From: Escherichia phage APECc02
Length of the DNA stretch: 64,000 nucleotides
Sequence record: NC_041869.1
Reading direction: 5' to 3' (one strand)
Position numbers and translations under genes: made by a program. Of this stretch, positions 5,846 through 59,972 are shown in pieces. Position 1 is the first letter of the stretch, and each line of letters begins with the position of its first letter. The notes below the pieces were generated by a model, which made no database searches, was not told where the DNA came from, and worked only from the letters and a program-made list of their open reading frames with translations.

Positions 5846-6114
5846 TACTCGGCCTCTTCCTTAAAAATTTTAAACATCTCTTCTTTACTCATTACCAACC
5901 AGTCCCCCATAAAATCAACAAGCCAATCACCCTGGTACAAGACTAGGTTACCAAACGGCTCTACAAGCTCACACATGCGACGAAGATCTCTGGTCCGAAC
6001 AGGTGACGATGTAAACACACCTGTATCAATCCACCGTTGCAGATCAGATACTGATGAAGAGCTTCCGTCAAACTGGTGTGCTTCTACAGGTTTAGCAAGA
6101 TTAAATAACGGCAT
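5845..6114 (-). CDS. hypothetical protein
   Basis: 89-aa ORF, abuts the ligase gene. Confidence 0.45.
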   Translation of the reverse strand: MPLFNLAKPVEAHQFDGSSSSVSDLQRWIDTGVFTSSPVRTRDLRRMCELVEPFGNLVLYQGDWLVDFMGDWLVMSKEEMFKIFKEEAE

Positions 6115-6439
6115 TGCAGTCCTCCTTATCTAATAGATCTTTTATTGGGTAAACAAGCAGGTGTGGATCGTAATAATTTATAGTTTTATTCTGCCACACT
6201 ATGAACTTAATTACAACTAAATTTACCACATCTTTATCTCCATGTAGTCCAACACACAGATTTGTCCATATTTTGTGGTTGAATACTTTGCTGTCGATGT
6301 AGATCTTAGTGTCAAACTTATCCTCTATCCTGCCTATAAGTTTAACCAACTCTTTCATCTGATCCCCAAACACAGCATCGTTTTCAAGATCTCTAGAGTG
6401 CTTGTACATAACTATCTGCCTCACTTGCATACTTTCCAC
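6101..6439 (-). CDS. hypothetical protein
   Basis: 112-aa ORF, overlaps its neighbour by 14 nt. Confidence 0.45.
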   Translation of the reverse strand: MESMQVRQIVMYKHSRDLENDAVFGDQMKELVKLIGRIEDKFDTKIYIDSKVFNHKIWTNLCVGLHGDKDVVNLVVIKFIVWQNKTINYYDPHLLVYPIKDLLDKEDCNAVI

Positions 6440-6472
6440 AACAAGTAAAGCCGGGTAATCCCGGCCATGTTG

Positions 6473-7186: not shown

Positions 7187-7199
7187 TAAAGGTCTCCTT

Positions 7200-7961
7200 T
7201 TAAAGTTCCATAAAGTTTTCTACAGTCTCAATGAATGTTTTATCAGAGAAGGCATCAACCGCACCGTTAAACCAAACTGGGATGCCGCGATCCTCATACT
7301 GGTAAATATCACTACGTGAAATGCCATTCTCCTCTAGATGCTGTGAGTCGTATTTATTAACGATCAGTAGTTTGGTTCCCTTATTGCAGGCAGGGAATAG
7401 CTCCCAGTTAAAATTGATAACTGTGTTGGAGCACCCTACAAGGATAACCATATCATTGCTCGTAAGAGAAGTCAACAGGTCATACATGTCTGTATACTTC
7501 GGAGCTACTTCTCCGAAGAACACCACATTAGGCTTAACCCAGGTATACTTTCCTGCGTCTACCTCAGAGTATCCAATGTCCTTAATGACGTCACTTCCTT
7601 CATCGTCCTCATAGACTATTTCTGGCAAATACCCGTGGACATGTAAAATATCTTCATGTTTTACACCAGCACGCTCCAGCAAATCATCTACATTGGTGGT
7701 AAGGTTGATCACACGACCAGACCAGCGGGAATACCACTCAGCGATCCGAAGATGTGCAAGGTTAGGCTCAACACTGCCTAAAGCTACACGACGTGCATTG
7801 TAAAAGTCATGCACCTTATAGTAGTTCTTGGCAAAGGTGTGGATGTTGCACACCTCATCGATGCTGAAATTCTCCCACATTGCAGTGCTACCAGATCGGA
7901 AAGTGGGAATACCAGATTCAGCGCTCAAACCAGCACCGGAGATAATAATCAGTCGTCGCAT
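7200..7961 (-). CDS. Sir2-family (sirtuin-like) NAD-dependent deacetylase / ADP-ribosyltransferase
   Basis: 253 aa; the three sirtuin hallmark motifs are present: ISGAGLSAESGIPTFRS (GAGxSxxSGIPxFR), TTNVDDL (TQNID-like) and HVHGY (catalytic His-Gly). Confidence 0.8.
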   Translation of the reverse strand: MRRLIIISGAGLSAESGIPTFRSGSTAMWENFSIDEVCNIHTFAKNYYKVHDFYNARRVALGSVEPNLAHLRIAEWYSRWSGRVINLTTNVDDLLERAGVKHEDILHVHGYLPEIVYEDDEGSDVIKDIGYSEVDAGKYTWVKPNVVFFGEVAPKYTDMYDLLTSLTSNDMVILVGCSNTVINFNWELFPACNKGTKLLIVNKYDSQHLEENGISRSDIYQYEDRGIPVWFNGAVDAFSDKTFIETVENFMEL

Positions 7962-7969
7962 AAGTGTCC

Positions 7970-8320
7970 TCAGTAGATGTTTTGTTTAATCTCTATTCCA
8001 AACTTTTTAAACGAGTCAGCTGCAAGCATGAATTTACGAGCCGCTGATGGGTTAGAAGTATGCACGAAAATCTTCACGTTGTCAACTACAGGAGGCTTAC
8101 CAAATACAAATTTTTCCTCTAGGATGCAGAAGCAATCGTATCCTTCAAAAATTTCTCCCAAGTCGCTGTCAAAATGCCACTCAGAAACTCGTCTATAAAG
8201 CTTTCTCTTGTCATTGATGAAATCCATAAACTCAGAAGAGTTCTTCAGCCAAAGAGCATCTTGGAGCCCGTAATTTGACGGATCTCTCAAGTCATCCAGC
8301 CACACAATCAACTTCTTCAT
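7970..8320 (-). CDS. hypothetical protein
   Basis: 116-aa ORF packed between the Sir2 gene and the RNA-ligase-like gene. Confidence 0.45.
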   Translation of the reverse strand: MKKLIVWLDDLRDPSNYGLQDALWLKNSSEFMDFINDKRKLYRRVSEWHFDSDLGEIFEGYDCFCILEEKFVFGKPPVVDNVKIFVHTSNPSAARKFMLAADSFKKFGIEIKQNIY

Positions 8321-9252
8321 TGCATATAGTCCTCGTTGTGGAAATAGTAGTCAAGTATCTCGCGGCGTTCCTGCTCAAGGAGACAGTTCCACACATCTTC
8401 TGTGTAATTGCTACGAATGAAGTTTACCATGCCGTAAAACTCTTCGTCAACACGTTTAAAGATATCCTCATCCCAAATCTTCCAAGCTTTACCTCTCATT
8501 ACGGCCTTCCGTGCCAAATAGTACGGAGACTTGATCTTCAGCTGCAGATCATAAGGGTAGTAAGGCTTACGAATCATATACCCTTCACCTCTTGTTTCTG
8601 CAGCTAATTCTTTTGCATAACTGAACGGAATTTCACGCACAGTGTGAGGACGTTTTGCACCAAGGTATTTGGCAATCCCATCTAAAGCTGCCTCTGGTAG
8701 CATTATTCCAGAATCATTATATCTGCAACCTATCAAATATGCGCCATGATCTTCCTGAACAATATGCGGATCTGAAGGGTGACAAATTTCAAACATGAAT
8801 GTCATGTTTTCATTGCCCATAACCTTCTTGATAAGATCTAAATTACCACATTGCTCCTGGATGGTTTCCTTTGCGAGGTTACAATATGGAGAATCAAGAG
8901 ATCCGGTTGTTGAGAACAATAGTTCACCTTTATGAGAGGATACCACACCAAGGAATCCGTTCTTTTTCTCTACCGCCGTCACAAGCTTATTGTCAGGCAG
9001 GTTGGTGGAGTTTTCTCCCAAGTTAAACACTTTTGTGAAGGGCCATGCCACAACATTTCCTTCATTACCGACAACAATGCCTCGGCACTCCAGTAAACGA
9101 GGGGACAAATGCCATAAATTGTTGTAAAATACTTTTCTGGCATATTTATAGATCTTTAACCCAAGATCCGGGTAATATCTACTGGTTACAAGACCTTTGT
9201 CAACTAGGTCGTCTGCATTAAAATACTTCATCATACGTTCCTCATTTGTCAT
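8317..9252 (-). CDS. putative RNA ligase (covalent nucleotidyltransferase)
   Basis: 311 aa; motif I KKNGF (Kx[DN]G), motif IV EGYMIRK, motif V LKIK; a separate DNA ligase already exists at 4562-5845 and a PNK-like kinase lies next door. Confidence 0.6.
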   Translation of the reverse strand: MTNEERMMKYFNADDLVDKGLVTSRYYPDLGLKIYKYARKVFYNNLWHLSPRLLECRGIVVGNEGNVVAWPFTKVFNLGENSTNLPDNKLVTAVEKKNGFLGVVSSHKGELLFSTTGSLDSPYCNLAKETIQEQCGNLDLIKKVMGNENMTFMFEICHPSDPHIVQEDHGAYLIGCRYNDSGIMLPEAALDGIAKYLGAKRPHTVREIPFSYAKELAAETRGEGYMIRKPYYPYDLQLKIKSPYYLARKAVMRGKAWKIWDEDIFKRVDEEFYGMVNFIRSNYTEDVWNCLLEQERREILDYYFHNEDYMQ

Positions 9253-9295
9253 TTTGTCAGTCTATCCTGCCACACAAATAACCTAGTGTCAACAC

Positions 9296-9324
9296 TTGAA
9301 ATTAACAAAACAGTTAGGTATACT
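9296..9324 (+). promoter_or_regulatory. sigma70-like promoter (TTGAAA-N17-TATACT)
   Basis: Hexamers with 17-nt spacing in the divergent intergenic region upstream of the kinase gene. Confidence 0.5.
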
Positions 9325-9352
9325 ATCGTTGAAATTAAAACGGAGTATTACT

Positions 9353-9763
9353 ATGTCTAAAATGCTATATATCGTGCGTGGTCTACCAGGGTCTGGCAAA
9401 TCAACACTGGCAAATGCGCTATCTTTAGAAGGTCTGTATCCACATTTTGAGAACGACATGTTCTGGTACGACGATGATGGAAATTACAACTGGGATGCAA
9501 GTAAAGTAACACTTGCAGCAAAATGGTGCAAAGATAACGTAGAAGATATGATGCGTATGGGATACGACCGTATCGTGGTAAGTAATACGTTTACAAAAGA
9601 AAAATATGTGCAAGAATATATTGACATGGCGATCAGTCATGGGTATAGTTATACCGTGATCGTGGTTGAAAACCGCCATGGTAATAAAAGCATTCATGAT
9701 GTTCCAGACAGGGTTGTGGATCGTATGGAACGCCAGCTTAAAAATTGCATTAAACTTAAATGA
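9353..9763 (+). CDS. polynucleotide 5'-kinase (P-loop, T4 Pnk kinase-domain-like)
   Basis: Start moved to the ATG at 9353 (GGAG RBS upstream). Walker A GLPGSGKST and IVVSNTFT resemble the T4 Pnk N-terminal kinase domain. Confidence 0.7.
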   Translation: MSKMLYIVRGLPGSGKSTLANALSLEGLYPHFENDMFWYDDDGNYNWDASKVTLAAKWCKDNVEDMMRMGYDRIVVSNTFTKEKYVQEYIDMAISHGYSYTVIVVENRHGNKSIHDVPDRVVDRMERQLKNCIKLK

Positions 9764-9770
9764 GGAATGT

Positions 9771-10325
9771 ATGAAATACTTTGTAACAAGCGACACACAC
9801 TTTCTCCACCAGCGGGTCATGGAGTTCGACTCATGTCAAAAACACAGATCTCAGTATGATCACAATCTTGACAGTATGAATGCGGGAATCATCACCGAGT
9901 GGAACTCTGTTGTGTCACCTGCAGACACTGTGTTCCACCTGGGAGATATTGCGTGCACTAATGATAAGAATATCAACAAATTGCTCCCAGATGTTCTAAA
10001 TATGTTGAACGGACATATTATTCTTGTTCGTGGTAACCATGACACAAGGACGACTGTCAGAATTATGAAAGAGTTCGGTCATGAGGTTGTAGATTATTAC
10101 GAGCTTCGCCACAACAAGAATTTGATCTGTATGAGCCATTACCAGTTTGCAAAGTGGAACAGAAAGCCTCACGGATCAGTCCAACTGTTCGGTCATGCTC
10201 ACGGAACCACACAGCAGTTGTTTGGCAGGCAGTTTGATGTCGGTTGGGATGTGTGGGGGAGACTCTTACCATTAGAAGAGGCATACCGTATTGCAATGAG
10301 TCTTGCTATTGACAGCGGGGAGTAA
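9771..10325 (+). CDS. calcineurin-like metallophosphoesterase
   Basis: Start at the ATG at 9771 (GAGGA RBS). Metallophosphatase motifs SDTHF, GDIA, GNHD and GHAHG. Confidence 0.75.
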   Translation: MKYFVTSDTHFLHQRVMEFDSCQKHRSQYDHNLDSMNAGIITEWNSVVSPADTVFHLGDIACTNDKNINKLLPDVLNMLNGHIILVRGNHDTRTTVRIMKEFGHEVVDYYELRHNKNLICMSHYQFAKWNRKPHGSVQLFGHAHGTTQQLFGRQFDVGWDVWGRLLPLEEAYRIAMSLAIDSGE

Positions 10326-10372
10326 TCCCTGCTATTTTAAAGAAAATTGCCACACAAGGAGAATCAGGAGAT

Positions 10373-10723
10373 ATGAAAGATGGGGATAAGCTGCTATATC
10401 TTAAAGTCCCCCTTGAAATACTGTCTATGTCAAAAGTTTTGAATGACACAACTGGGGAGGTTGTTGTTCTTGACTTGTATGACAAGATCGTATACTGCTA
10501 CCTGCACAACTGGTATAAGCTTGGAGGAAGTTCACGCTTCACACCCAGCACAAGGAAAATTGCAGCAGATGTTGGGATAAAGAAAACAAAAGCAGCAGCG
10601 TGCGTTAAAACTTTAGAATGTGCAGGAGTGGTTGAAATATCCACACAAGGGAGAGGTAAAAGATGCACATTTTCCAAAGTTTTGCCACCAGAAGAGGTTA
10701 TTCGAATGTCAACAACTGGTTAG
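10373..10723 (+). CDS. putative DNA-binding protein (helix-turn-helix-like)
   Basis: 116 aa; segment STRKIAADVGIKKTKAAACVKTLECAGVVEI looks like an HTH/winged helix; gene ends 75 bp upstream of the palindromic repeat array. Confidence 0.4.
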   Translation: MKDGDKLLYLKVPLEILSMSKVLNDTTGEVVVLDLYDKIVYCYLHNWYKLGGSSRFTPSTRKIAADVGIKKTKAAACVKTLECAGVVEISTQGRGKRCTFSKVLPPEEVIRMSTTG

Positions 10724-10798
10724 ACCAGTAAAAACTTAAATATCTGTACTATAAGGATTCGTATGTTTTATGTTCGCTCTGGAACAGAGGTTAGTAAC

Positions 10799-10879
10799 TG
10801 TCCGTGATACGGACACTACTGTCCGTCACGCGGACACATCTGCCCGTAATACGGACACTAACTGTCCGTGATACGGACA
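10799..10879. repeat. array of four 17-bp palindromes TGTCCG-N5-CGGACA at 21-22 bp spacing
   Basis: Copies at 10799, 10820, 10841 and 10863; copies 1 and 4 are identical (tgtccgtgatacggaca), copy 3 has one arm mismatch. Confidence 0.8.
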
Positions 10880-10921
10880 CATAAAGAATATAACTAAAAT
10901 AACTAAATAATAAAAAATAAA

Positions 10922-10981
10922 AGATCTAGTACTTATGGTACTAAGTACATATACTTAACTTATGTAGAATATACTAGATCC
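10922..10981. repeat. AT-rich region with nested inverted repeats
   Basis: agatctagta ... tactagatc flanking inverted repeat, plus internal palindromes agtacttatggtact and gtactaagtac; immediately downstream of the repeat array. Confidence 0.4.
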
Positions 10982-11383
10982 TAAGTACCATGTTTTAAAT
11001 TTATTACTTACTATGGGTAGTGTCGGCCCTTCATTGGCACTCGCCTACGAGGGGCGAGATGCCGGGCCTCCCTGGTGCACACAATAACAGAAGTGCATAC
11101 ATGCAGGTCTGTTAACATGTGTGGGAGCGAAGCGATAGCGCAGGCCAAAGGCCGAGCACTGATGTGGACCACCGACGAAAGCTTGCCAGCGCCGTAAGGA
11201 GTCGGTTGAGAGTCTCCCGCGCGAGCTTGGATGAAGTTTATGTGTGGAAACGGACAAGAAGGCCCCTAAATCGCTCCACAGCTATATAAACTATACCAGG
11301 TAAGGCAATCGCACCAGTTTGATAGAAAAGCTCGTTACAAAGCGATACAGTGAGTTTTTCTATAACTTGAAGAGGAGGTAGTT

Positions 11384-11962
11384 ATGAGTCCACGCAAAGA
11401 TGACCGTGAAAAGATTGCAAAACGTTATCAGAATGAAGAACAGATGGAGAAAACTTTCAAGTGGAAGCCAGGTTTCCAGCGTAATCATTCTAACGCTCGT
11501 GATCGTAAGCATCCGGATAAGTGGTTAACACCGCCAAATGATGGCATTCAGGTTGGTGATGAGAAGGAGCTGTCACCTGGAAAAGATGGCAACTACATTC
11601 GAACTAAGGAAGCAGGTCCAAAGGATGACAGCTATCTTGTAGATAAGGTTCTTGACGGTGTTGATGTAGGTGTTGACACTGTACGAAACCTTTTTCTTGG
11701 TTGGTATCGCACAGGGTTTTTCGACATCAAGGCTATTCGTCGTGTTTGTGATATTAAAAAGTCTGCCTACGATGATGATTCCCTACATCGCACTCTGAGA
11801 CAATACTCAGAGAGATACGGTCATCCAGTTATCACTCTTGACGATATTAACGAAGTTATGTATCATGTAGAGGTTGTTGCAGGTAGGTTCGGTGATGCAT
11901 ATCTCGGTATTCTCTCTGCAAAGGATGAGGTAATGTTAAATAAGATTTACTATGAACGCTGA
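11384..11962 (+). CDS. hypothetical protein
   Basis: 192-aa ORF with GAGGAGG RBS upstream; first gene after the noncoding block. Confidence 0.5.
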   Translation: MSPRKDDREKIAKRYQNEEQMEKTFKWKPGFQRNHSNARDRKHPDKWLTPPNDGIQVGDEKELSPGKDGNYIRTKEAGPKDDSYLVDKVLDGVDVGVDTVRNLFLGWYRTGFFDIKAIRRVCDIKKSAYDDDSLHRTLRQYSERYGHPVITLDDINEVMYHVEVVAGRFGDAYLGILSAKDEVMLNKIYYER

Positions 11963-14440: not shown

Positions 14441-14485
14441 CCCGCCCCGTTAGCTGTATAGCTGTATAGCTGCGGGGTTTTTTCG
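14441..14485 (+). terminator. putative rho-independent terminator
   Basis: GC stem cccgc/gcggg with a large loop holding a gctgtatagctgtatagctg tandem, then a 7-T run. Confidence 0.5.
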
Positions 14486-15184: not shown

Positions 15185-15618
15185 TGTCTAAGATTTCTAA
15201 GATTTACGGACCGTGTTCTGAAAAGCAGAAGATGATCCTCGAAAACGATGCAGATATTTTGGTAATCGGCGGTGCCGCAGGGTCTGGCAAGTCGTTCCTC
15301 TTGCAGTTGATGCCGCTTAAAATTATTGATGACCCACACAGCTCTGTGGTTATGTTCCGAAGAACAACCCCGCAGTTGGAAGGTGAGGGTGGACTATGGC
15401 CTAAAGCAGTAGCTATTTATAGTGATCTGCCTGAAAACATTAAGCCAAAGTTTAGAGAGAAGGATCATAAGTTCATTTTTCCACGGTTTGATCCGAGCAC
15501 TGGCAAGTGGGATAGAAGCAAAAAGGGAGCTGTTGTAAAATACTGCCACATGGAGTATGTACAAGATAAGCTTAACCATCAGGGGCTTGAGTACACCATG
15601 GTTTGCTTCGATGAGGGT
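15184..15618 (+). CDS. terminase large subunit, exon 1 (ATPase N-terminal part)
   Basis: Walker A VIGGAAGSGKSF; ORF stops immediately after the Walker B-like MVCFDEG, with the rest of the protein in another frame about 0.9 kb downstream. Confidence 0.75.
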
Positions 15619-37646: not shown

Positions 37647-40600
37647 ATGGCTGATATTAAAGTTGTCAGAATCGAATCTCTTCCTGCCACTACCGCAGTG
37701 ACAGAGGATGATTACCTGGTTGTTCAACAACCAGACCTGACCCGTCGTGTAAAAATTGGCGATGTTGTCCATGTGGATGGGACTGTTTCTCATGTAATCT
37801 CCTTTAAGGAAGGTGGTAAGTTAAACGGCCCAATGGATTTTGCCTACTTCGAAGAGGAAGACCTCTACCTGCGTTGGAAAGGCGAATTTCCACACACTGT
37901 TCCTGCACTATCTTCACCGTACTCCGATGGTGGGATTACTGACGCTGCATGGATGGTATATACAGATCCGTCCTTAAGGGAGGAGCTGGAATCTACCATT
38001 GGCGCATCTATGATCATGACAGCCGAAGGGCAGTCTGTCCAGGATGTAATGGATGTTACTGTTCAAACAGCTAACGATGCTAAAGCACTTGCACAGCGTG
38101 TGGATTTTGGTACAGTGCACACTGTAGGTGATGTTATTCACCTTGATAACTTTGTAGGTCCTGCAGTTATTGAAGAGGGAAGAACCACCAACTACCCTTC
38201 TGTAGCAGCTGGTGAAAAATTTCTGAACGGTGTGGTATCTCGTCGTGATACTACAACTGTTGATGGTATTTTCCGTGGCGCTACCTCCGGGGCCATGTAT
38301 ACCATTGCAGTAACCAATGGTGTAGCAACAACAAAAAGAATAGCACTTCGTGATGAATTTAAACGCCTGGAGGCAAACAGCCCAACAAGAACAGTTATCC
38401 GTGCTGGAGATGATTTAAACACGGCAGGGTACTTGCAGCTTGATGCAACAGGCCGCTGGGGTATGTGGAACCAACAAACAGCCTCGTGGCAACCTCTTGC
38501 TATAGAGCAAGGCGGTACAGGAGCCAGGGATGCCGCAGGTGCACGTATTAACTTAGGGGCTTTCTATAAGCAACGTGCAGCCCTTGAGCCAAATTTCAAT
38601 ATCAATAACTTGACTGGTAATCAGGATGGTGTATACTACCAGCCGATGACTGCTTATGCAACCGAGGCAAATGGTTACCCTGCAGGTTCTGGTGCTGGTC
38701 ACTTGATTGTTTGGCAGAACAATGCTAACGGCGGTACAGGTTGTCGTCAGGAATACTATCCATTCTCTAACGTAGATGTTTGGTATTTGAGAACCTATCA
38801 AGCCAACACAAACCAGTGGACTGCATGGCAGCCGATGGTCAGACCTCGTAACGATGATACCTTTAGATCGCACATCGGTCTCGGGTCTAGAAATTCCCCT
38901 ACCTTCGGGCACCTTTACCTGTCTCAAAGTTCTGCTGATGTTAAGTCAGCATCAGGTATTGTTAACGGGGACAAATACAGCGCTGACGGTGTCCTTGAGC
39001 ATGGTTATAGGATCTACTCTGAGGTAAGAAACGACAATAAGGCTTGGTTGACAATCCACCTGCACAAAGGTGCAAAAGGATCTGAAACCCATAGATATTT
39101 AGGTTTCCGCGAAGACGGTGTATTAGACTGCCCTAAATACATGCAGGTTGGGGATCTTACTGGTCAGCTGACAAACTGGGGACTTGGAGAGTGGATACGT
39201 AGTTCAGGAGCAGAAAGAGGCTTCTGGGGATCTAAGAAAGCCGCCAAGATGGTTATCTGGGATGGCGGGATGGACGAATCCGGTAACGGCACTCTGGAAT
39301 GGGGTGTTTATAACAACCGGAAGGCCAAGTGGGAACCTCTACCTCAAGCCGCAGGTGGCACCGGGGCTACAACTCTAGTAGATGCTCAGAATCTGTTCAA
39401 AGTTCCTATAGCAGCAGGTGTGAAAGACTTCTTAACACTGCCAAGAACCGCAGGGATGGAAGATGGGAAATACTACCCGATCATCGTTAGAACAGATCCG
39501 TACTATGCTCCAGCAACTGGTACTGATATTACCATAGTTACCAGATCGTCATCTGGAAATGACCCTATGAACTGTGCTACCTTACAGTGTCACTATAGAA
39601 CTGGTGGTTGGACAGACAGAGGAGACTCTTTCTACGGGGTAGTAAATTTCTACCAGAATGAAAAAGCAATTCTTGGGATGGTTGCTCCAACAAGGGGTAA
39701 ACAAGAATATGTTGCTTTCTATGCAGAGGCGCGTGCTTTCCCTGTCAGCATATACGCAAGTAGAAATGTTGTCGAGGTGTTTACCAGGGAGCAAGATTAC
39801 CAGGTTGGCTCTGTAACAGACAATCAGGACGGTGTTAAGTTCGTTGCACCTCTCCAGTCAGCAGATTTGAATCTTGCTGTTCTTGGAGATAATAATACCA
39901 ACACCAGACCTATTGTTGACTTCAAAGGGACTTCAGGGTTCTACACTGGTGGCGGCACACAGTGGCACTATATAGGCACTGCTGAACGCTATGCTGTGAT
40001 GAGCAAAATGAATATGCCAAAAGTCGAGCTATGGGCAGACGGTCTTGACTATTTGTGCTACGGCAGTCCTAGAAAGGCGTTATTCTCTAATGCAGGCTTC
40101 CAGTGTGCATCAGATGGGACAGAGGATCTGACTAACGGTACGTTTACCTCTAAATGCGGTAATGGTGCTGGTCTCAAAGGTCAGGCAGAGTTCAGATCTA
40201 CTCCAGAGGCTGGTCAAGTTATTGTTCGTGATGTTGTAGGTTCTGCTCACAGATTCTACAACTTCAACAAAGATGGCACTTTCTCAGCTCCTGGTGGTTT
40301 TGTATGCCACACAGGTGCAGACTGGAACAACCAGTTCGGGAATAACAACCCTTCTAAAATAATGGCTGGTAACGTCAACGGACCTGAAGGTTCCATGGTT
40401 GTAGCAGGGTTGTCGGTTGGTTTTTCTGGAAACTACGCTTTCCAGATGGCAGGTCGTTTAGACCAGCTGTATACTCGTTCCATAGAGCAGGGAAACCACA
40501 GAGCGTGGAACAAAGTTATTCAGCACCGTGGTCAAGGGTTGGGAACTAATGACCTTAACGACTACAAGGCAGATCGTGAAGGGATTTACCATCAAGAGGC

Positions 40601-42086
40601 AAATGCCAACGCCACAGCGGAAAGAAATTACCCACCAGGACAGCAGATGGCTGGTACGCTGATCGTTCTTAGAAACTCCGCTAACGAAGGAACAGGTTGT
40701 ATCCAGATATATAAAATGTATCTTGGTGGAACATGGGAAAGGTATTACAATAACCTTGGCAGCGGAATGGCTTGGAGTCCTTGGAAGAGAACAAGCTTCC
40801 CAGAAAACACAACTGCTCCAGTTATGCCTGACTTGTGGTTGCCTTTAACCTCTAACCTAAAACCTGCATTGGGTGAAGGTGAGATGGTCTTCTCCAGACC
40901 TTCCACAGCAACCTATTTCACTAAGCGGGGTGTTATGGCTGTTGCACAAGCAAACCAACCACGTTTTGAAAGAGATGGGTTGCTTATCGAGGGGCAAAGG
41001 ACAAACCTCATGCTCAACAGTGAGGACCCAAGCAAGTGGGGTGCACAGCAAGCGATTACTGTCGGTAGCACTGTAACAAATACTAACGGCACAAAAGGCG
41101 CAAGATTTACAGTAAACACCACATCCGGTGTAGAAACAACAGCGTTAAACCTTGCCACTGTTCCAGCCACTAGGGGTGCCGATGTGACAGGTGCTGAGAA
41201 ATTCTGTACTGGGTCTATTATTGCAAGGGGAGGTAAAGCGAACCAGAGATTACGTGTAAGATTCGACATGTATGACGGATCCACCACAGTATTCCAAGGT
41301 GACGCTTATGTTAACCTGTCAACACTTGAAGTTAAAACAACAGGGGATGCAGCTGGGAGAATTAAAGTAAAAGCTGAGAGATGGCAAACAGCCGGACCTG
41401 CTTGGGTAAGGATTGCCGCTACGTTTGAGGCAGCGGCCTCTGACAAGAATATCGGTTGCCAGTTCCAGATTGCCCCGCCGGAGAGTTCTCAACATGCCGT
41501 AGGGGATTGGGTTGACGTTGCAATACCTCAGTTTGAGTTGGGATCTTGTGAGTCCTCGTTTATCCCTACAGGGTCTTCACCTGTAACCAGGGCGGCAGAT
41601 CTTTGTAAATTTCCAATGACGGATAACCTAGCGCCCAGACCGTTCACTATCGCCGCTACGGTTGATGCCAACTGGAGAGGCTGGGGCAAAGCTCCTAACG
41701 CAGCTCCTAGGGTTATTGATACAGAAGGTCATCAATCCGGTGCTGCATTTATCATGGGGTTTGGCTCTGCAACAAATATTGCAGATGATGGTTATCCATA
41801 CTGCGATATTGGTGGGTCAACCAGACGTGTCTATGAGATGGCTAAAGCGCGTAAATTGAAGATTGGGTTCAGGATAAAAGGGGACGGTAAAACATGCTCT
41901 TTTGCTAATGGATTGGTAAGTACGGAAACACAGTCTTCTTGGGAGTTCCTGGCAGGAGGCGCTTTCCTCCGCATTGGTGGTAAAACGGCGACAGGTGAAA
42001 GACACCTATTTGGTCATATTAAGGACATAAGAGTTTGGAACTCTGCGTTGACAGATACTCAACTCATGATGGGGAGTGTTGAATAA
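37647..42086 (+). CDS. large tail fibre protein
   Basis: 1479 aa; N-terminal anchor shared with 34344-35012; two copies of the fibre collar-like motif (WQPLAIEQGGTGARDAAGARINLG and WEPLPQAAGGTGATTLVDAQNLF); internal duplicated ~70-aa segment. Confidence 0.65.
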   Translation: MADIKVVRIESLPATTAVTEDDYLVVQQPDLTRRVKIGDVVHVDGTVSHVISFKEGGKLNGPMDFAYFEEEDLYLRWKGEFPHTVPALSSPYSDGGITDAAWMVYTDPSLREELESTIGASMIMTAEGQSVQDVMDVTVQTANDAKALAQRVDFGTVHTVGDVIHLDNFVGPAVIEEGRTTNYPSVAAGEKFLNGVVSRRDTTTVDGIFRGATSGAMYTIAVTNGVATTKRIALRDEFKRLEANSPTRTVIRAGDDLNTAGYLQLDATGRWGMWNQQTASWQPLAIEQGGTGARDAAGARINLGAFYKQRAALEPNFNINNLTGNQDGVYYQPMTAYATEANGYPAGSGAGHLIVWQNNANGGTGCRQEYYPFSNVDVWYLRTYQANTNQWTAWQPMVRPRNDDTFRSHIGLGSRNSPTFGHLYLSQSSADVKSASGIVNGDKYSADGVLEHGYRIYSEVRNDNKAWLTIHLHKGAKGSETHRYLGFREDGVLDCPKYMQVGDLTGQLTNWGLGEWIRSSGAERGFWGSKKAAKMVIWDGGMDESGNGTLEWGVYNNRKAKWEPLPQAAGGTGATTLVDAQNLFKVPIAAGVKDFLTLPRTAGMEDGKYYPIIVRTDPYYAPATGTDITIVTRSSSGNDPMNCATLQCHYRTGGWTDRGDSFYGVVNFYQNEKAILGMVAPTRGKQEYVAFYAEARAFPVSIYASRNVVEVFTREQDYQVGSVTDNQDGVKFVAPLQSADLNLAVLGDNNTNTRPIVDFKGTSGFYTGGGTQWHYIGTAERYAVMSKMNMPKVELWADGLDYLCYGSPRKALFSNAGFQCASDGTEDLTNGTFTSKCGNGAGLKGQAEFRSTPEAGQVIVRDVVGSAHRFYNFNKDGTFSAPGGFVCHTGADWNNQFGNNNPSKIMAGNVNGPEGSMVVAGLSVGFSGNYAFQMAGRLDQLYTRSIEQGNHRAWNKVIQHRGQGLGTNDLNDYKADREGIYHQEANANATAERNYPPGQQMAGTLIVLRNSANEGTGCIQIYKMYLGGTWERYYNNLGSGMAWSPWKRTSFPENTTAPVMPDLWLPLTSNLKPALGEGEMVFSRPSTATYFTKRGVMAVAQANQPRFERDGLLIEGQRTNLMLNSEDPSKWGAQQAITVGSTVTNTNGTKGARFTVNTTSGVETTALNLATVPATRGADVTGAEKFCTGSIIARGGKANQRLRVRFDMYDGSTTVFQGDAYVNLSTLEVKTTGDAAGRIKVKAERWQTAGPAWVRIAATFEAAASDKNIGCQFQIAPPESSQHAVGDWVDVAIPQFELGSCESSFIPTGSSPVTRAADLCKFPMTDNLAPRPFTIAATVDANWRGWGKAPNAAPRVIDTEGHQSGAAFIMGFGSATNIADDGYPYCDIGGSTRRVYEMAKARKLKIGFRIKGDGKTCSFANGLVSTETQSSWEFLAGGAFLRIGGKTATGERHLFGHIKDIRVWNSALTDTQLMMGSVE

Positions 42087-42418
42087 TGAATATTTTTACC
42101 CTTGGATTCACTGACAGGGAGGACTTTAACGGTTTCATGGATGAAATCGGCTTTTATGAGAATGAGGTGTTGCAAAACACCCTTCTTGTAGAGGTTGTCG
42201 GGTTCATTTACACAGAGACTGGAGACACTTATGAGGCCGAAGATGAATTTGGCAACATGGTTGTCTACCCGGTTTGCGAGAAAAGTGAATTGTTTTATGT
42301 TAACGTTCTGGCTCTGGACGAGGATGCAGAAAACATCGTCTCTAAAAGCGGAAAAGTTGTAGATCCGATAAGGTTGAACATGTTCGACCCATCAGTATCC
42401 ACCTTGGAAGCACTTTAA
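42086..42418 (+). CDS. hypothetical protein (possible fibre-associated)
   Basis: 110-aa acidic ORF overlapping the fibre stop, followed by a terminator. Confidence 0.4.
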   Translation: MNIFTLGFTDREDFNGFMDEIGFYENEVLQNTLLVEVVGFIYTETGDTYEAEDEFGNMVVYPVCEKSELFYVNVLALDEDAENIVSKSGKVVDPIRLNMFDPSVSTLEAL

Positions 42419-55448: not shown

Positions 55449-57209
55449 ATGGCGCAAGACATGACAAGCTTTGAGCAGGCGGTAGATCAAGTAATTGTTG
55501 ATTCTGAACGTTTGCACTTGGTTGTCAACGGTAACGCTGTGGATGAAGTTGTCGTAGAGGATGGGACCACCATCCCTACGGTACGAAAAGCCATGCTTGA
55601 CAACCTTTATTTTAAAACGCCACCGATCCCTTGGGCGTATGGTGCATCCACAACAGTTTTTAACCAGCTGTACGAGTTTAAAGGGGACACAGGCCCTCAG
55701 TGGTGGTACGCTCCCGCAGCATCAAAATCTAACCCGGTTAGAATGCCAGCAGATCCTTCACAATCTCCAAACTGGAGATTATATACCGACTCTGCAGTAA
55801 TGGCAAAATACTACGCAAAACTTAACAGCCCGAGGTTCGAAGGTGACCCACGAGTACCTACACCTCCAATGGACGATAAGTCAGAGTCCATAGCAAACAC
55901 AGAGTTTGTTGTTGACTATGTTGATAGCATATTTAAAGCCATGGAGGGGATGAAAGTTACTGTAGGGTCTTTGGTGGTAAAAGGTCTTACAGAACTCGCT
56001 AACACTATAGTTGGTGGCACCCTTACCTTACATGGACCTGTTAATGGGGCAGATTCTACTGCACGCTTTAGGAATCTAATCCTCACGGCAAATACTTCTA
56101 CACTTACTTTTGCGTGGAGCGATCCTAAGCATGCAGACTGGAGAAGTACAGAGCTGCAACCTCATGAAGTGTCCACCCACAGGGTTATAGCTGACAGGGT
56201 TATAGCTGACACTATAACTTCTGGGAAACCAGTGGCTAATAATAACGATGTGCATTTTGATGGTCTGGGTAATAACTTTTTTGACTACGTGTACATTCGT
56301 GGTAATGCCATGAAGGCAGCAACCGAACCGACATTGCAGGTCGATGGGACCACCAGGGTTAAGAACCTTGAGGTGACAGGTACCGTTACAGGGATAACAT
56401 ACTCTGTCGATGGCACCATGATCTACCCTAGCTATATTGAAAGCACGGGTGATGCATTGATAAATGGCGATTTGGAGGTTGGCGGGTCTGTAGTTATTCG
56501 AGGTACAGCCTCTATCCAAAATATAGCTCTGAATACTCTAAGAGTCAATGAGCGTGCAACTTTTGAAGGAGAAGGGCTTACAGCCAATAAAGGTACAATT
56601 ACCGAGCTAACCACCACCACTTTAACTGCAACAACTGCAAACTCTGAAAACTGCAACATTACCAGAAACTTGCAGGTAAATGGAGATGTTAGTTTAAACG
56701 CCGCAGGGACTGGCACCACCCACCTTCACAACCTTGAAATATCCGGCACAGTGACCGGGTGGCTGCCAGACTTCTCTAATGTCAACTTTGTCTGTAATGG
56801 CATTAACTCCAGTGGTAAGATAACCACCTCTCAAGAAATTGAGGCGGGTAAAACCATTACTGCCCCTACTTTCCACGCAGGAAAGGTAGATTTTGACTTA
56901 GAGGAGGTTGACGCGTCCAGTGGGACATGGACACCTAACGGGCAGGCCAGCATGTATGTTGTCCACGCGAAAGGGGATTTTACAATAGGACAGTGGCCTG
57001 GGACATCAGCGGAAGATAAACCTTATCCATTCACTGCAGTTATCTATGTCATTCAGGATGCTGTAGGTCACAACGTGACTTTGCACGATAAGTATGCTAT
57101 CCTGTCGGCAACACCTGTTATTAACAACAAGGCTAACAGTGTTACCTTGCTGCAATTAACGTATTGTGGTGTTGGTGATATTGTAGACGTAGTAATTGCA
57201 CAACGTTAA
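55449..57209 (+). CDS. tail fibre / tailspike-like protein
   Basis: 586 aa; N-terminal motif SPRFEGDPRVPTPPMDDKSESIANTEFV, repetitive Thr/Gly/Asn-rich beta-type segments. Confidence 0.55.
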   Translation: MAQDMTSFEQAVDQVIVDSERLHLVVNGNAVDEVVVEDGTTIPTVRKAMLDNLYFKTPPIPWAYGASTTVFNQLYEFKGDTGPQWWYAPAASKSNPVRMPADPSQSPNWRLYTDSAVMAKYYAKLNSPRFEGDPRVPTPPMDDKSESIANTEFVVDYVDSIFKAMEGMKVTVGSLVVKGLTELANTIVGGTLTLHGPVNGADSTARFRNLILTANTSTLTFAWSDPKHADWRSTELQPHEVSTHRVIADRVIADTITSGKPVANNNDVHFDGLGNNFFDYVYIRGNAMKAATEPTLQVDGTTRVKNLEVTGTVTGITYSVDGTMIYPSYIESTGDALINGDLEVGGSVVIRGTASIQNIALNTLRVNERATFEGEGLTANKGTITELTTTTLTATTANSENCNITRNLQVNGDVSLNAAGTGTTHLHNLEISGTVTGWLPDFSNVNFVCNGINSSGKITTSQEIEAGKTITAPTFHAGKVDFDLEEVDASSGTWTPNGQASMYVVHAKGDFTIGQWPGTSAEDKPYPFTAVIYVIQDAVGHNVTLHDKYAILSATPVINNKANSVTLLQLTYCGVGDIVDVVIAQR

Positions 57210-57218
57210 TATATCTAA

Positions 57219-57243
57219 CCGCTCCTGACGGGGCGGTTTTCTT
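57219..57243 (+). terminator. rho-independent terminator
   Basis: ccgctcc-tgac-ggggcgg hairpin plus TTTT. Confidence 0.65.
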
Positions 57244-57257
57244 ATCTGGAGAACACA

Positions 57258-58623
57258 ATGCTTCCAATCCCTTTGCTAAAACTTGGTCGTCATTTCCTCG
57301 ATAAGAGGGGTGGAATTAAGGAACTTGCTGTTCTGTCATACCCAATAGACAACAGTGATGGTACAAGCAACACAGTATCCTATGTAAATAGCTTAGCTAT
57401 ACTTTTTGATGATGGTCAGCTTAATATTACTGGCTATAATAGGTTCGGAGAGTGTCGGACTGGAGATCTTGATACAATAAACTATCCTAATGAGGCAGCT
57501 TGGAACGTAGACCATGTTTGGAGAGCTGACCGTGCATTTGTAATCCGCACATTCGATAATAAATTTTTCTATATTGGTTGCACAGCTGGTCTTATCGGGA
57601 TCGGAGGCAGCAGGTGGAAACGATGTTTGTGTCAGAGAGTGGGCACCTTTGCCGGAACAGATCGTAACAGGGTTGCATTTGGACACCCATCCTGAGAGAC
57701 TTGTTGAAGTAATGGGTGGCGTAAACAATACAGTGTGGGTAATTGCTGCACCAGAGGCTGATGGTATGCTTCACCTGTACGGCTCTGGCAATAATACTTA
57801 CGGCTCTCTTCATGTTGACAAAAGTCAACACGCTACTCCAGTTAAGATCGGTGAAACATCTGAAAGTCCAGAGACAGGTCCTTGGAAAAATCCAAGAATT
57901 AATTGTGAAGTTCATGACAACTCGGTTATTTTTGGTGGTCCTAACGGATTCTGGATTGCAGGTTACGATTTCTTAAGAAATAACAGCAAAAACACACTAG
58001 TTTATCCAGCCGAGCATGTGACTCTTGACCAGTTTAAAGGCATCCCGGTGGGCGAGACATGGAAAGGGTTCATGTGTGGACCTAATGGTGCAATTATAGC
58101 CACAGAAAGGATGCACAAACCTGATGACCAACAGCTTGTTAATGTGTTTTATGGTCAGGATGTTTGGGGTGACGACACGTGGAGAAGCCTTAACATCACC
58201 TATACCCATGAAGTAATTATGGCTCGCGGGTACGGGACTAGTGGAATTTTCTTCAATAATGGTACAAAACAGTACCGTGGTTTCTCCAGAAACCTGTGTA
58301 ACGATATTGGTGCTCAATCTGCTAATAATAGTCCTAGGGCCAATTTTATTCATTACAGAGCGCTGGCAACAGCTAAGTTTGTTGAACAGACAGAGCCAGT
58401 AAGCTGGACAGAAAGCGTTTATTTTCAAGGGATCCACAGGGAAGGTTTCTTAGGCACATTCTGTGTGGTAAATGGAAAGCTTTGGTGGTCAGGAATACCA
58501 CGTGGTAGTTTTTCAGGATCTAATAACCTCTTTAGCGGCAGACTTAACAGCCAAGGGTTGCTAAAGTTTTCTCAGGTATTAAATGGAATCTACCTGTCCA
58601 AAGTATTTCATGGAAGCAAATAG
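57258..58623 (+). pseudogene. RCC1-like repeat protein gene, reading frame disrupted by a +1 change near 57606-57620
   Basis: ATG 57258 with GGAG RBS. Frame 0 carries repeat-like GYNRFGECRTGD and FFYIGCTAGLIGIGG then stops at 57695; frame +1 is open from 57562 and continues the same repeat type (LHLYGSGNNTYGSLHV) to 58623. Confidence 0.45.
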
Positions 58624-58739
58624 GTGATAACAAGCTGCTGGTTACCCCTGCCTGTCAGTTCAACGCAACTCTTAACGTTGATCCTGCTGTTGCGGCAAAC
58701 TCAGCTAAAGCTTCTGACTTCTCTGTGTCTAACACTGCT

Positions 58740-59930
58740 ATGGCAGATGTGAGGAAGATTGACACGCTGAACGCCAGAATTACCTGTAAAAACACTTATG
58801 GCACATTCCAAATCATCAACAACTTCACAGATGCTGATTCTAAGGTAGTGAGGACAGCAAGCCAGACTCTGAGTTTAGGGACTCTGGCCTATGCGGCCCT
58901 GATCACCGAACAGTCGGCAACACTCCAAGGAGGCGGTGTAGGCAAGTCCATTGCAACACCTGTGTGGAAGCCGAATGAGTGGGTTGTGTTTGATTTGACT
59001 GTGGACTTCTCCAGTGATAATAACTGGACATGGGTAAGGAATTGTTTGTCACAGTTGATGGGCGGTCCAAGCTCCGTTAGTGATAGTCACGACTCTACTG
59101 ACCCGAGTGTGTTCCAGGTAGGTAAAACTCACCCAGAGACTGGAGAAACGTTGCCTGACAGGAAGTATGCGTTGGTTTGCATCTCTTACGGGAAGGCAGA
59201 TGTCACCTTCTCAGGGACACACACTTATAACGGAACCTACAATTTCTCAAGGAAGTATAGTCTCAAAGCAGGGAACATTATAGACGAGGTTGGTGCACTG
59301 TATAATCCTGGCAACGGCATAGGGATTGTGGGTGGTCAACTGCAGATGCAGGAACCTTCTATTACCCCTTCCAACGTATCTGGGATTAGAAAGACTTGGG
59401 AAAGTAGCAATACCAACATTGCAACAGTGGATGCTACCACAGGACTGGTAACATTTAAAGCTACTGGGAATGTCACCATAAAGTTTGTAGTTACAGATGA
59501 TGCAGGCCGCAAAACGTCCTCAACATCATTCACTGTCAAACAGATGGCACCTCAGTGGTTTATTTGGGAAGGAAATCCTCTTGACGGGGCCTACCCTAGA
59601 CCTGCAGGAACGTCTAATATGAGGGTCTTTACCGGTCCGGTAATGAACAATCCGACCACAACCACCAACCCTACATTTTTTGGTGCTTACATACCTGAAA
59701 TTATTGGCCTACCAAGGAACCAGATACAACTGCTTTTCGGAGCAGGTGTTGATGGTCTAGCCACTTTTGGGTACAGTGACAACATTGATGCAGCCAGAAG
59801 CTCGGGTTGGATTGGATTTAAGTTTCAGTGGAACCCTGGTGGTAGAACATTAGGTCTTGCAAGCATAGGTGTTATGCTACCTGGTAACCAGCAATACCAT
59901 CTCGAAGCTTATACAAACTTCCCTAGTTAA
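58740..59930 (+). CDS. Ig-like domain-containing protein (possible fibre or decoration protein)
   Basis: ATG at 58740 (GTG at 58725 is an alternative); ATGNVTIKFVVTDDAGRKTSSTSFTV resembles a bacterial Ig-like (BIG2-type) strand pattern; frame is open upstream into the previous gene. Confidence 0.5.
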   Translation: MADVRKIDTLNARITCKNTYGTFQIINNFTDADSKVVRTASQTLSLGTLAYAALITEQSATLQGGGVGKSIATPVWKPNEWVVFDLTVDFSSDNNWTWVRNCLSQLMGGPSSVSDSHDSTDPSVFQVGKTHPETGETLPDRKYALVCISYGKADVTFSGTHTYNGTYNFSRKYSLKAGNIIDEVGALYNPGNGIGIVGGQLQMQEPSITPSNVSGIRKTWESSNTNIATVDATTGLVTFKATGNVTIKFVVTDDAGRKTSSTSFTVKQMAPQWFIWEGNPLDGAYPRPAGTSNMRVFTGPVMNNPTTTTNPTFFGAYIPEIIGLPRNQIQLLFGAGVDGLATFGYSDNIDAARSSGWIGFKFQWNPGGRTLGLASIGVMLPGNQQYHLEAYTNFPS

Positions 59931-59946
59931 CAGGAGGAAAATAAAA

Positions 59947-59972
59947 AGGGGCCAAACGGCCCCTTTCTTTTT
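59947..59972. terminator. bidirectional rho-independent terminator
   Basis: ggggcc-aaac-ggcccc hairpin flanked by an A run upstream and a T run downstream; separates convergent gene blocks. Confidence 0.8.

What the first reader, a model, noticed from the sequence alone, without database searches (positions are those of the whole stretch)
57258..58623. RCC1-like repeat gene with a reading-frame break
Repeat-like sequence runs in frame 0 from 57258 to about 57610 and then continues in the +1 frame to 58623; frame 0 stops at 57695. Either a sequencing indel near ggaggcagcagg, an inactivating mutation in a non-essential fibre-associated gene, or a rare +1 recoding event.
Basis: seen in the sequence. 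Interest (0 to 1): 0.5.

Follow-up and report, generated by a model that had tools for sequence, protein, structure and literature searches.

The report
Broken lateral tail-fibre gene in phage
The frame break is real, but it is one of two disabling mutations (one extra G and a 2,956-base deletion) in a large accessory tail-fibre gene of an rV5-like E. coli phage, so this is an ordinary decayed gene, not a recoding signal.

Summary
The window comes from Escherichia phage APCEc02 (Vequintavirus, rV5-like). Region 57258-59930 is the orthologue of rV5 gp27, annotated as a lateral tail-fibre protein with an RCC1-like N-terminal domain and a Big_2 domain. In most relatives it is one ORF of about 1,875-1,878 codons.

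Here the gene is in three pieces:
- Codons 1-114 lie in frame 0 (57258-57599).
- Codons 114-433 lie in frame +1 (57598-58559).
- The last 459 codons are back in frame 0 (58551-59930).

GG has become GGG at 57597-57599. None of 61 related records has the extra G.

2,956 bp are deleted between two copies of GCCAAGGGTT, with the junction at 58550-58559. None of 117 records has this junction. The stop at 58623 is an out-of-frame by-product of the deletion, not the gene's natural end.

**Recoding is not supported.** The shift is not conserved, there is no slippery or stall context, there is no downstream RNA structure (z = 0.08), and two separate shifts would be needed.

**A sequencing error is unlikely.** The genome was sequenced on Illumina, no other gene is broken in about 48 kb compared, and the deletion alone kills the gene.

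**RCC1-like is supported.** A family profile hits RCC1-like structures at E = 3e-14.

The closest analogy is the stf frameshift of laboratory lambda. Interest is low.

The parts
57217..57238 (+). Terminator-like hairpin between the upstream fibre gene (gp28 orthologue, 55449-57209) and this gene. GGAG at 57248-57251 is the likely ribosome-binding site for the ATG at 57258.
   Evidence: Terminator scan; sequence read directly.
57258..57599 (+). Fragment A: native codons 1-114 of the gp27 orthologue in frame 0. It holds the N-terminus and the first RCC1-like repeats.
   Evidence: Identical to HeinrichReichert/FFH2 gp27 orthologues over this stretch; PHROG 15684 positions 1-115.
57597..57599 (+). 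Lesion 1: a GGG run that carries one extra G (relatives have GG, i.e. GGA TCG). It shifts the native reading into the +1 frame.
   Evidence: Pairwise alignments with HeinrichReichert, rV5 and FFH2. None of 61 phage records matches the 85-nt site without a gap.
57600..57695 (+). Out-of-frame tail of ORF1: 31 aberrant codons, then TGA at 57693-57695. ORF1 (57258-57695) is deposited as the 145-aa hypothetical protein FDG86_gp176.
57598..58559 (+). Fragment B: native codons 114-433 in the +1 frame, the rest of the RCC1-like domain. It carries two substitutions, both nonsynonymous: T129A (57643), not seen in the 10 relatives compared, and G426S (58534), absent from the four nearest relatives. The record annotates ATG 57712-58623 as the 303-aa hypothetical protein FDG86_gp175.
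   Evidence: PHROG 15684 positions 112-436, E = 2e-226; 99.8% identity to FFH2/HeinrichReichert; exact-protein look-up.
58550..58559 (+). Lesion 2: the junction of a 2,956-bp deletion, marked by the single remaining copy of the 10-bp direct repeat GCCAAGGGTT. The deletion removes about 985 codons (about 434-1416) and changes frame by -1.
   Evidence: BLAST offsets differ by 2,956 and the two matches overlap by 10 nt. Both flanks are shown. Repeat copies sit at gene nt 1292 and 4248 in HeinrichReichert and A51.2. None of 117 records spans the junction, and the junction is absent from three other collections.
58560..58623 (+). Out-of-frame tail of ORF2: 20 aberrant codons (LLKFSQVLNGIYLSKVFHGS K), then TAG at 58621-58623.
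58551..59930 (+). Fragment C: the native C-terminal 459 codons plus stop, back in frame 0. The last frame-0 stop upstream is at 58545. It contains a Big_2 Ig-like domain (about 59331-59501) and the variable distal tip. No start codon occurs before GTG 58725 / ATG 58740, and neither has a Shine-Dalgarno sequence. The record annotates 58740-59930 as the 396-aa FDG86_gp174.
   Evidence: PHROG 15684 positions 1476-1877, E = 2e-255; Pfam Big_2 E = 1e-9; 98.8% identity to the A51.2 orthologue.
59945..59966 (.). Bidirectional terminator-like hairpin after the gene. Downstream genes are on the opposite strand.
   Evidence: gene order in relatives.

Best explanation
Region 57258-59930 is a decayed copy of the last large lateral tail-fibre gene of rV5-like phages (rV5 gp27 orthologue). 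Its architecture is an RCC1-like N-terminal domain, a long middle part and a Big_2 C-terminal part.

Two independent mutations of the replication-slippage or microhomology type disabled it in the APCEc02 lineage:
- a +1 G insertion in a GG run at codon 114;
- a 2,956-bp deletion between two 10-bp direct repeats.

What is shown: the gene can no longer give a full-length product. The only well-initiated product is a 145-aa stub made of 114 native and 31 aberrant residues.

What is inferred: the virion lacks this one fibre or adhesin. The phage stays viable because adsorption to its propagation hosts relies on other fibres, namely the deacetylase-domain fibre and the short tail fibres. Loss was either neutral or favoured during propagation, as with lambda stf.
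For: **One gene in relatives.** The orthologue is a single ORF of 1,875-1,878 codons in rV5, HeinrichReichert, FFH2 and A51.2. It is one annotated feature in 43 of the 46 listed records that annotate one here, and ECML-10 is intact though unannotated.

**Three pieces of one family.** The window's three ORFs map to positions 1-115, 112-436 and 1476-1877 of one 1,878-position profile.

**Lesions defined to the base.** Both are unique to this genome: 0 of 61 records for the insertion and 0 of 117 for the junction.

**No single frame reads through.** Frame 0 has 36 stops across fragment B.

**Assembly quality.** No other gene is broken in about 48 kb aligned to FFH2. The genome was sequenced on Illumina from purified phage.

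**Slippage in the same lineage.** A unique 15-nt tandem duplication lies in the neighbouring fibre gene.

**Drift.** Against the nearest relatives, the N-terminal part has 0 synonymous and 2 nonsynonymous changes, one of them at a residue invariant in distant homologues.

**Dispensability is plausible.** Other assemblies carry independent disruptions of the same gene: nomine W82*, a Logan contig W558*, naswa, ime, Alma, and frameshifts in P0016 and P0017. Vequintaviruses use a different, deacetylase-domain fibre on K-12. APCEc02 forms plaques and grows normally.

**Precedent.** Plaque growth selects stf frameshifts in lambda, with 19 of 21 isolates mutated.
Against: - No reads are available, so neither lesion is verified at read level.
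- The 'lateral tail fibre' role of gp27 is an annotation-level inference. The BASEL authors say it is unclear which genes form which fibre, and gp27 is not among the virion proteins named for rV5.
- The control fibre gene (gp41 orthologue) is split in a similar number of public records, 3 of 60 listed. The recurrence of breaks is therefore not shown to be specific to gp27, and some may be assembly errors (Alma has several).
- The net change of the two lesions is a multiple of three (+1 - 2,956 = -2,955). This is an odd coincidence, though expected about half the time for two frameshifting lesions.
Confidence: 0.8

Rival explanations
1. Sequencing or assembly artefact. The real phage carries an intact gene, or at least lacks the extra G, and the frame break comes from a consensus error, or from assembling a minority deletion variant.
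For: The insertion lies in a short homopolymer. Other public assemblies of this gene show indels in homopolymers that may be errors (naswa GGGG->GGG, the T-run shifts in P0016 and P0017, and multiple breaks in Alma). No reads could be inspected.
Against: The genome was sequenced on Illumina HiSeq 2x100 from CsCl-purified phage, a platform with low indel error at 2-3-nt runs (own knowledge). No other coding frameshift appears in about 48 kb compared with FFH2. A 10-bp repeat is too short to cause a k-mer assembly collapse (own knowledge), so the deletion junction must exist in real molecules. Even if the G were an error, the 2,956-bp deletion (not a multiple of 3) still truncates the protein after the RCC1-like domain.
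Confidence: 0.1
2. Programmed +1 ribosomal frameshifting at GGG-A (57597-57600). The Gly-tRNA slips from GGG to GGA, which would restore exactly the native sequence ...LIG-SEAAGG....
For: A +1 slip on GGG_A allows perfect re-pairing and gives the same amino-acid sequence as the relatives. A GGAGG string lies just downstream (57603-57607).
Against: None of 61 orthologous sites has the extra base, so there is no conserved recoding site. The next frame-0 codon is the common AUC, not a stop or a rare codon. There is no Shine-Dalgarno-like element upstream (direct reading). The 103 nt downstream fold no better than shuffles (z = 0.08). The product would still end 20 aberrant codons after the deletion junction, so a second, unrelated -1 shift would be needed to reach the C-terminal part.
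Confidence: 0.02
3. A functional split gene. The three ORFs, annotated as separate hypothetical proteins in the public record, are separately expressed and useful. For example, the stub could occupy the fibre's docking site, or the Big_2 C-terminal fragment could be made on its own.
For: The deposited record annotates three CDSs of 145, 303 and 396 aa. ORF1 keeps the native ribosome-binding site and start. Natural shorter relatives of 833-891 aa combine the RCC1-like domain directly with Big_2. This resembles what an in-frame version of this deletion (890 aa) would encode.
Against: ORF2 and ORF3 have no recognisable ribosome-binding site (direct reading). ORF1 and ORF2 cut the RCC1-like domain in the middle of a repeat, so neither should fold. 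Both end in aberrant out-of-frame tails. The arrangement is unique to this genome. There is no conservation signal for a split.
Confidence: 0.05

Closest known systems
rV5 gp27 / BASEL Bas58_0041 'lateral tail fiber protein with intimin domain' (PHROG 15684)
   Same: It is the orthologue. It has the same position after the gp28 orthologue and the same start codon. Identity is 99.8% (N-terminal part) and 97-99% (C-terminal part) to FFH2, HeinrichReichert and A51.2.
   Different: It has an extra G at codon 114 and lacks about 985 central codons. It is not a continuous ORF, so it is a pseudogene of this family rather than a working member.
Side tail-fibre gene stf of laboratory lambda (lambda PaPa), split by a frameshift into orf401 and orf314
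   Same: An accessory, non-essential tail-fibre gene of a plaque-propagated coliphage is broken by a 1-nt indel, and the pieces are annotated as separate ORFs. Loss can be selected on plates: 19 of 21 plaque-evolved lambda isolates carried stf mutations, 15 of them frameshifts. The Ur-lambda versus PaPa history is from own knowledge (Hendrix & Duda 1992).
   Different: The phage family and fibre protein are different. Here there is a second lesion, a large deletion. Neither selection nor fibre loss has been shown experimentally for APCEc02.
Lateral tail fibres of T5-like phages (dispensable on K-12)
   Same: These are accessory fibres that bind variable surface glycans and are not needed on rough laboratory hosts.
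   Different: There is no sequence relationship, and the ligand of gp27 is unknown.
Phage tail proteins of PHROG 11922 (about 830-890 aa: RCC1-like N-terminal domain plus Big_2)
   Same: They have a homologous N-terminal RCC1-like domain (E = 1e-15 to 7e-24 against the intact domain) followed by Big_2.
   Different: They lack the ~1,000-residue middle part. They share only 27-30% identity over the N-terminal domain alignment. They are intact genes.
Deletions between short direct repeats in phage genomes (e.g. T4 rII deletions; own knowledge)
   Same: The deletion endpoints coincide exactly with a 10-bp direct repeat, and one copy is retained.
   Different: Nothing notable. This is the classical signature.

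Membership tests
rV5 gp27 / PHROG 15684 lateral tail-fibre protein | Sequence match along the family profile | tested here: met
   The three pieces match profile positions 1-115, 112-436 and 1476-1877 (E = 1e-73, 2e-226, 2e-255). Positions about 437-1475 are absent.
rV5 gp27 / PHROG 15684 lateral tail-fibre protein | Conserved genomic position (after the gp28 orthologue, before the convergent small genes) | tested here: met
   Gene order in rV5, HeinrichReichert, FFH2 and A51.2 compared with the window; flanking terminators.
rV5 gp27 / PHROG 15684 lateral tail-fibre protein | A single uninterrupted ORF of about 1,875-1,878 codons | tested here: not met
   There are two frame changes and 36 frame-0 stops across fragment B. 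It is a pseudogene of the family.
rV5 gp27 / PHROG 15684 lateral tail-fibre protein | The product is a virion fibre component | not testable with these tools
   This is annotation-level only. gp27 is not named among the rV5 virion proteins in the text or the held supplements.
RCC1-like domain (seven-bladed beta-propeller) | Pfam RCC1 / RCC1_2 / WD40_RLD above the gathering score on this protein | tested here: not met
   On the intact orthologue: WD40_RLD 20.4 bits (cut-off 150, E = 3.6e-4) and RCC1_2 13.9 bits (cut-off 22). There are no hits on the window fragments.
RCC1-like domain (seven-bladed beta-propeller) | Homology to established RCC1-like domains at family level | tested here: met
   Seven homologues with E = 7e-24 to 1e-3 pass the Pfam RCC1 gathering score, and an eighth is a bona fide 7-repeat RCC1 protein. 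A profile of the family hits PDB RCC1-like domains in 31 of 32 matches (HERC1 3e-14, HERC2, UVR8, RPGR, RCC1 1e-4). PHROG 4219 'regulator of chromosome condensation' scores 3e-9.
RCC1-like domain (seven-bladed beta-propeller) | Seven-bladed propeller fold | tested here: inconclusive
   The single-sequence AlphaFold2 model is unusable (mean pLDDT 38.7). About seven G-x-N-x-x-G-x-L-like motifs can be read by eye in residues about 50-433, but they were not formally scored.
Programmed +1 ribosomal frameshift | The frameshift is conserved in orthologues | tested here: not met
   None of 61 records has the extra base. Orthologues are single ORFs.
Programmed +1 ribosomal frameshift | A shift-prone site with a slow A-site codon or stop, plus a stimulatory element | tested here: not met
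   The site is GGG AUC with a common A-site codon. There is no upstream Shine-Dalgarno-like element. The downstream RNA fold has z = 0.08.
Programmed +1 ribosomal frameshift | One shift yields the complete functional product | tested here: not met
   The second frame change at the deletion junction (58559) ends the +1 frame at 58623.
Accessory tail-fibre pseudogene (lambda PaPa stf type) | Intact ORF in relatives, with a lineage-specific disabling lesion | tested here: met
Accessory tail-fibre pseudogene (lambda PaPa stf type) | The phage is viable without the gene product and the fibre is absent from virions | not testable with these tools
   Viability is documented in the source paper (plaques, one-step growth). 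Fibre absence has not been examined. The only hint is that fibres measure 46 nm in APCEc02 against 70 nm reported for rV5, from different laboratories.

The most novel reading that the evidence does not exclude
Loss of the gp27 fibre is adaptive rather than neutral. The gp27 protein would be a conditionally costly accessory adhesin that rV5-like phages repeatedly discard during plaque or laboratory propagation, as lambda does with stf. Its loss would narrow host range. APCEc02 does not lyse UTI89, whereas all BASEL Vequintavirinae, which have intact gp27, do. An even less likely variant is that the net in-frame architecture (+1 - 2,956 = -2,955) is a step towards a mini-fibre of 890 aa that resembles the natural RCC1-like plus Big_2 tail proteins.
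Probability: 0.15. Interest if true: 0.4.

Novelty: new member of a known kind. Interest (0 to 1): 0.15.

Why it matters
There are two practical consequences.

- **Annotation.** The public record and RefSeq list three 'hypothetical proteins' (gp176, gp175, gp174). These are fragments of one dead tail-fibre gene and should be annotated as a pseudogene. The fragments also seed spurious protein clusters.
- **Phage biology and therapy.** APCEc02 is proposed as a therapeutic phage and is the type strain of a species. It probably lacks one of the receptor-binding fibres of its genus, which may explain a narrower host range. Repairing the gene from a close relative would be a simple test of what the gp27 fibre binds.

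There is no new mechanism here.

Tried and rejected
- **Recoding.** I looked for conservation of the shift (none), a slippery or stall context (none) and downstream RNA structure (z = 0.08). Rejected.
- **Two genuinely separate genes.** Rejected, because orthologues are single ORFs.
- **A generally error-prone assembly.** I listed all indels against FFH2. Every indel that is not a multiple of three, apart from this one, is intergenic or locally compensated. Rejected as a general explanation.
- **gp27 is broken more often than other genes.** The control fibre gene gp41 is split in a similar number of listed records, so I do not claim a gp27-specific hotspot.
- **Searches for the same insertion or deletion elsewhere.** There were no hits in IMG/VR, the metagenome collection or the genome collection.
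- **Single-sequence structure prediction of the intact N-terminal domain.** It failed (pLDDT 38.7), so no fold search was run.
- **The search for homologous proteins.** It gave only 3 close hits, and no deep alignment usable for structure prediction was obtained.
- **Look-up of P0045's contig.** The exact ORF1 product is not on record as a called gene in the contig index.
- **rV5 proteomics.** The text and supplements do not mention gp27.
- **Two papers retrieved for 'frameshift' plus Vequintavirus.** They concern host mutations, not phage genes.

Full report
**Observation.**
The ORF table shows 57258-57695 (145 aa, frame 0) and 57574-58623 (349 aa, frame +1). They overlap, and the frame-0 stop is TGA at 57693-57695. 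Frame 0 has 36 stops between 57693 and 58545, whereas frame +1 is open from 57544 to 58620. An open run of 320-349 codons has a chance probability of about 1e-7. Both ORFs match the same family profile, PHROG 15684 (1,878 positions), at positions 1-115 and 112-436. The frame break inside one gene is therefore real.

**What the gene is.**
Megablast places the window in the rV5-like Vequintaviruses, with 119 related records. In rV5, HeinrichReichert, FFH2 and A51.2 the ATG that corresponds to 57258 opens a single ORF of 1,875-1,878 codons. This is rV5 gp27, annotated as 'Ig-like domain-containing protein' or 'lateral tail fiber protein with intimin domain'. [quoted passage not shown]

A third window ORF (58725-59930, frame 0) matches positions 1476-1877 of the same profile and carries the Big_2 domain. 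The gene remnant therefore spans 57258-59930, not 57258-58623.

Exact-protein look-up identifies the source as Escherichia phage APCEc02/APECc02 (135,400 bp). Its record annotates the three pieces as separate hypothetical proteins of 145, 303 and 396 aa.

**Lesion 1.**
Base-level alignment with HeinrichReichert, rV5 and FFH2 shows one extra G in the run at 57597-57599. The window reads CTT ATC GGG ATC GGA, while the relatives read CTT ATC GGA TCG GAG. An 85-nt query centred on the site matched 61 records. All matched over 84 nt at 98.8% identity or lower, and none was identical. Native reading is therefore codons 1-114 in frame 0 and then the +1 frame.

Window 57000-58559 aligns to HeinrichReichert locus positions 3901-5459. 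Window 58550-59558 aligns to positions 8406-9414. The offsets differ by 2,956 nt, and the two matches overlap by the 10-mer GCCAAGGGTT. This 10-mer occurs at gene positions 1292 and 4248 in HeinrichReichert and A51.2. This is the classical signature of deletion between short direct repeats.

The deletion removes about 985 codons and, because it is not a multiple of three, shifts the frame by -1. As a result:
- The +1 frame runs into a TAG at 58621-58623 after 20 aberrant codons.
- The true C-terminal coding sequence lies in frame 0 from 58551 to 59930.

No record out of 117 spans the junction. The junction string is also absent from IMG/VR, the metagenome collection and the genome collection.

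The sum +1 - 2,956 = -2,955 is a multiple of three. This cannot rescue the protein, because the 960 nt between the lesions are unreadable in frame 0.

**What can still be made.**
ORF1 keeps the native GGAG and ATG, and would give 114 native plus 31 aberrant residues. The ATG at 57712 and the GTG/ATG at 58725/58740 have no Shine-Dalgarno sequence (direct reading). ORF1 and ORF2 split the N-terminal domain within a repeat. A functional fibre protein cannot be produced.

**Real or artefact?**
The source paper reports CsCl-purified phage sequenced on Illumina HiSeq 2x100. Against FFH2, every other indel in the window that is not a multiple of three is either intergenic or compensated within a few bases. 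I checked positions 20760, 30553, 31535, 59952, 60798, 60867, 61552, 62355 and 63628 against the FFH2 annotation. This is therefore the only broken gene in about 48 kb compared.

A 10-bp repeat is too short to mislead an assembler (own knowledge). Even if the extra G were an error, the deletion alone truncates the protein. The same lineage also carries a unique 15-nt tandem duplication (RVIAD repeated) in the adjacent fibre gene, giving 586 aa against 581 aa in the other listed cluster members. That is another slippage-type event.

Against its nearest relatives, the N-terminal part shows 0 synonymous and 2 nonsynonymous changes. T129A hits a residue that is invariant among distant homologues. 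This fits relaxed constraint, though the numbers are tiny.

**Recoding.**
A +1 slip on GGG_A would restore the native sequence, but nothing else supports a programmed event:
- The site does not exist in any relative.
- The following codon is the common AUC, and no Shine-Dalgarno-like element lies upstream.
- The downstream 103 nt fold no better than shuffled sequence (z = 0.08).
- A second, unrelated shift would be needed at 58559.

**RCC1-like?**
Pfam finds nothing on the fragments. On the intact orthologue it finds only sub-threshold hits: WD40_RLD at 20.4 bits against a cut-off of 150, and RCC1_2 at 13.9 bits against 22.

An exhaustive HMMER search with an intact 557-aa homologue found only 11 representatives. 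Seven of them pass the Pfam RCC1 gathering score, and one is a bona fide seven-repeat RCC1 protein. A profile of the N-terminal domains hit PDB RCC1-like domains in 31 of 32 matches: HERC1 at 3e-14, HERC2, UVR8, RPGR and RCC1 at 1e-4.

The label is therefore supported at family level. The fold itself was not confirmed, because the single-sequence model had pLDDT 38.7. The relatives are phage tail proteins (PHROG 11922) that combine this domain with Big_2.

**Is the gene dispensable?**
Independent disruptions of the orthologue occur in other assemblies:

| Assembly | Lesion |
|---|---|
| nomine | W82* |
| Logan contig | W558* |
| Alma | 1-nt deletion at codon 209 |
| naswa | 1-nt deletion at codon 763 |
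| ime | 2-nt deletion at codon 1052 |
| P0016, P0017 | frameshifts at a T-run near codon 104 |

The protein clusters also contain many fragments of differing length on full-length phage contigs.

However, a control fibre gene (the gp41 orthologue) is split in 3 of 60 listed records. That is about the same rate, so I do not claim a gp27-specific hotspot. Some of these breaks may be assembly errors.

Two independent points support dispensability. Vequintaviruses use a deacetylase-domain fibre to bind their glycan receptor on K-12. APCEc02 plaques and grows normally.

APCEc02 lysed 5 of 16 strains and did not lyse UTI89, whereas all BASEL Vequintavirinae infected UTI89. This is only a cross-laboratory correlation, but it can be tested.

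**Comparison and novelty.**
The closest parallel is the stf side-tail-fibre gene of laboratory lambda. It is split by a frameshift into orf401 and orf314, and loss-of-function frameshifts in it are selected in plaques (the PaPa history is own knowledge).

This case is another instance of that known kind. The specific fact that APCEc02's three 'hypothetical proteins' are one dead fibre gene is not mentioned in its paper. Interest is low. The value lies in correcting the annotation and in a simple repair experiment.

Noticed in passing
window 56182-56211 (inside the gp28 orthologue, 55449-57209): There is a perfect 15-nt tandem duplication (GGGTTATAGCTGACA x2) that adds RVIAD to the neighbouring tail-fibre protein. 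It is 586 aa here and 581 aa in every other listed member of its cluster and in the relatives compared. This is another slippage-type event in the same lineage, and it is in frame.
   Followed up: partly
L008 (nomine, MN850649.1) 5159-10786; L007 (Logan SRR22133733) 6001-11628: Two other assemblies carry TGG-to-stop nonsense mutations in the same gene (W82* and W558*). Each splits the gene into two called genes.
   Followed up: yes
L009 (ime), L010 (Alma), L011 (naswa): The gp27 orthologue carries small frameshifting deletions at codons 1052, 209 and 763. Alma also has its gp41 orthologue annotated in four pieces, which suggests an error-prone assembly.
   Followed up: partly
P0016 and P0017 (cluster of window ORF1): Independent assemblies show a frameshift about 20 nt upstream of the window's site, after ...FDNKFF, in the run AAATTTTTC. 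It leads into the same alternative frame and, in P0016, to the same stop.
   Followed up: no
P0045 (Logan, 42.9-kb contig): A 396-aa ORF starts at the same ATG as window 58740 and differs by only 2 residues. That start is expected only if a lesion lies within about 70 codons upstream, so this contig may carry the same deletion.
   Followed up: no
L012 (ECML-10, OL631479.1) 242-5878: The record leaves an intact 1,878-codon gp27 orthologue unannotated. Its numbering jumps from ORF 28 to ORF 26.
   Followed up: yes
phage records MG0656xx ('Campylobacter phage C12, C15, A12a ...'): About 15-18 records labelled as Campylobacter jejuni phages are 90-99% identical to E. coli rV5-like phages across the tail-fibre region. 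The host labels look wrong, or the phages were contaminants.
   Followed up: no
L005 (FFH2, NC_024134.1) about 10315-10698, against window 57100-57258: FFH2 has about 336 extra bases between the gp28 and gp27 orthologues relative to the window and rV5. The intergenic gap is 385 nt against 48 nt. FFH2 also has three matching places, which suggests a local duplication.
   Followed up: no
window 10859-10880; also 14465-14472 and 15197-15205: Relative to FFH2 there are short insertions that duplicate the adjacent sequence: 22 nt ending in ATACGGACAC, 8 nt TATAGCTG and 9 nt CTAAGATTT. These are more slippage-type tandem duplications, in the early-gene part of the window. Their coding status was not checked.
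   Followed up: no
A51.2 (ON286973.1) and EdH4 (MK327930.1), gp41 orthologue: The other large lateral fibre gene (window about 37650-42090) is annotated as two CDSs in these records. Breaks in big fibre genes are therefore not confined to gp27.
   Followed up: partly
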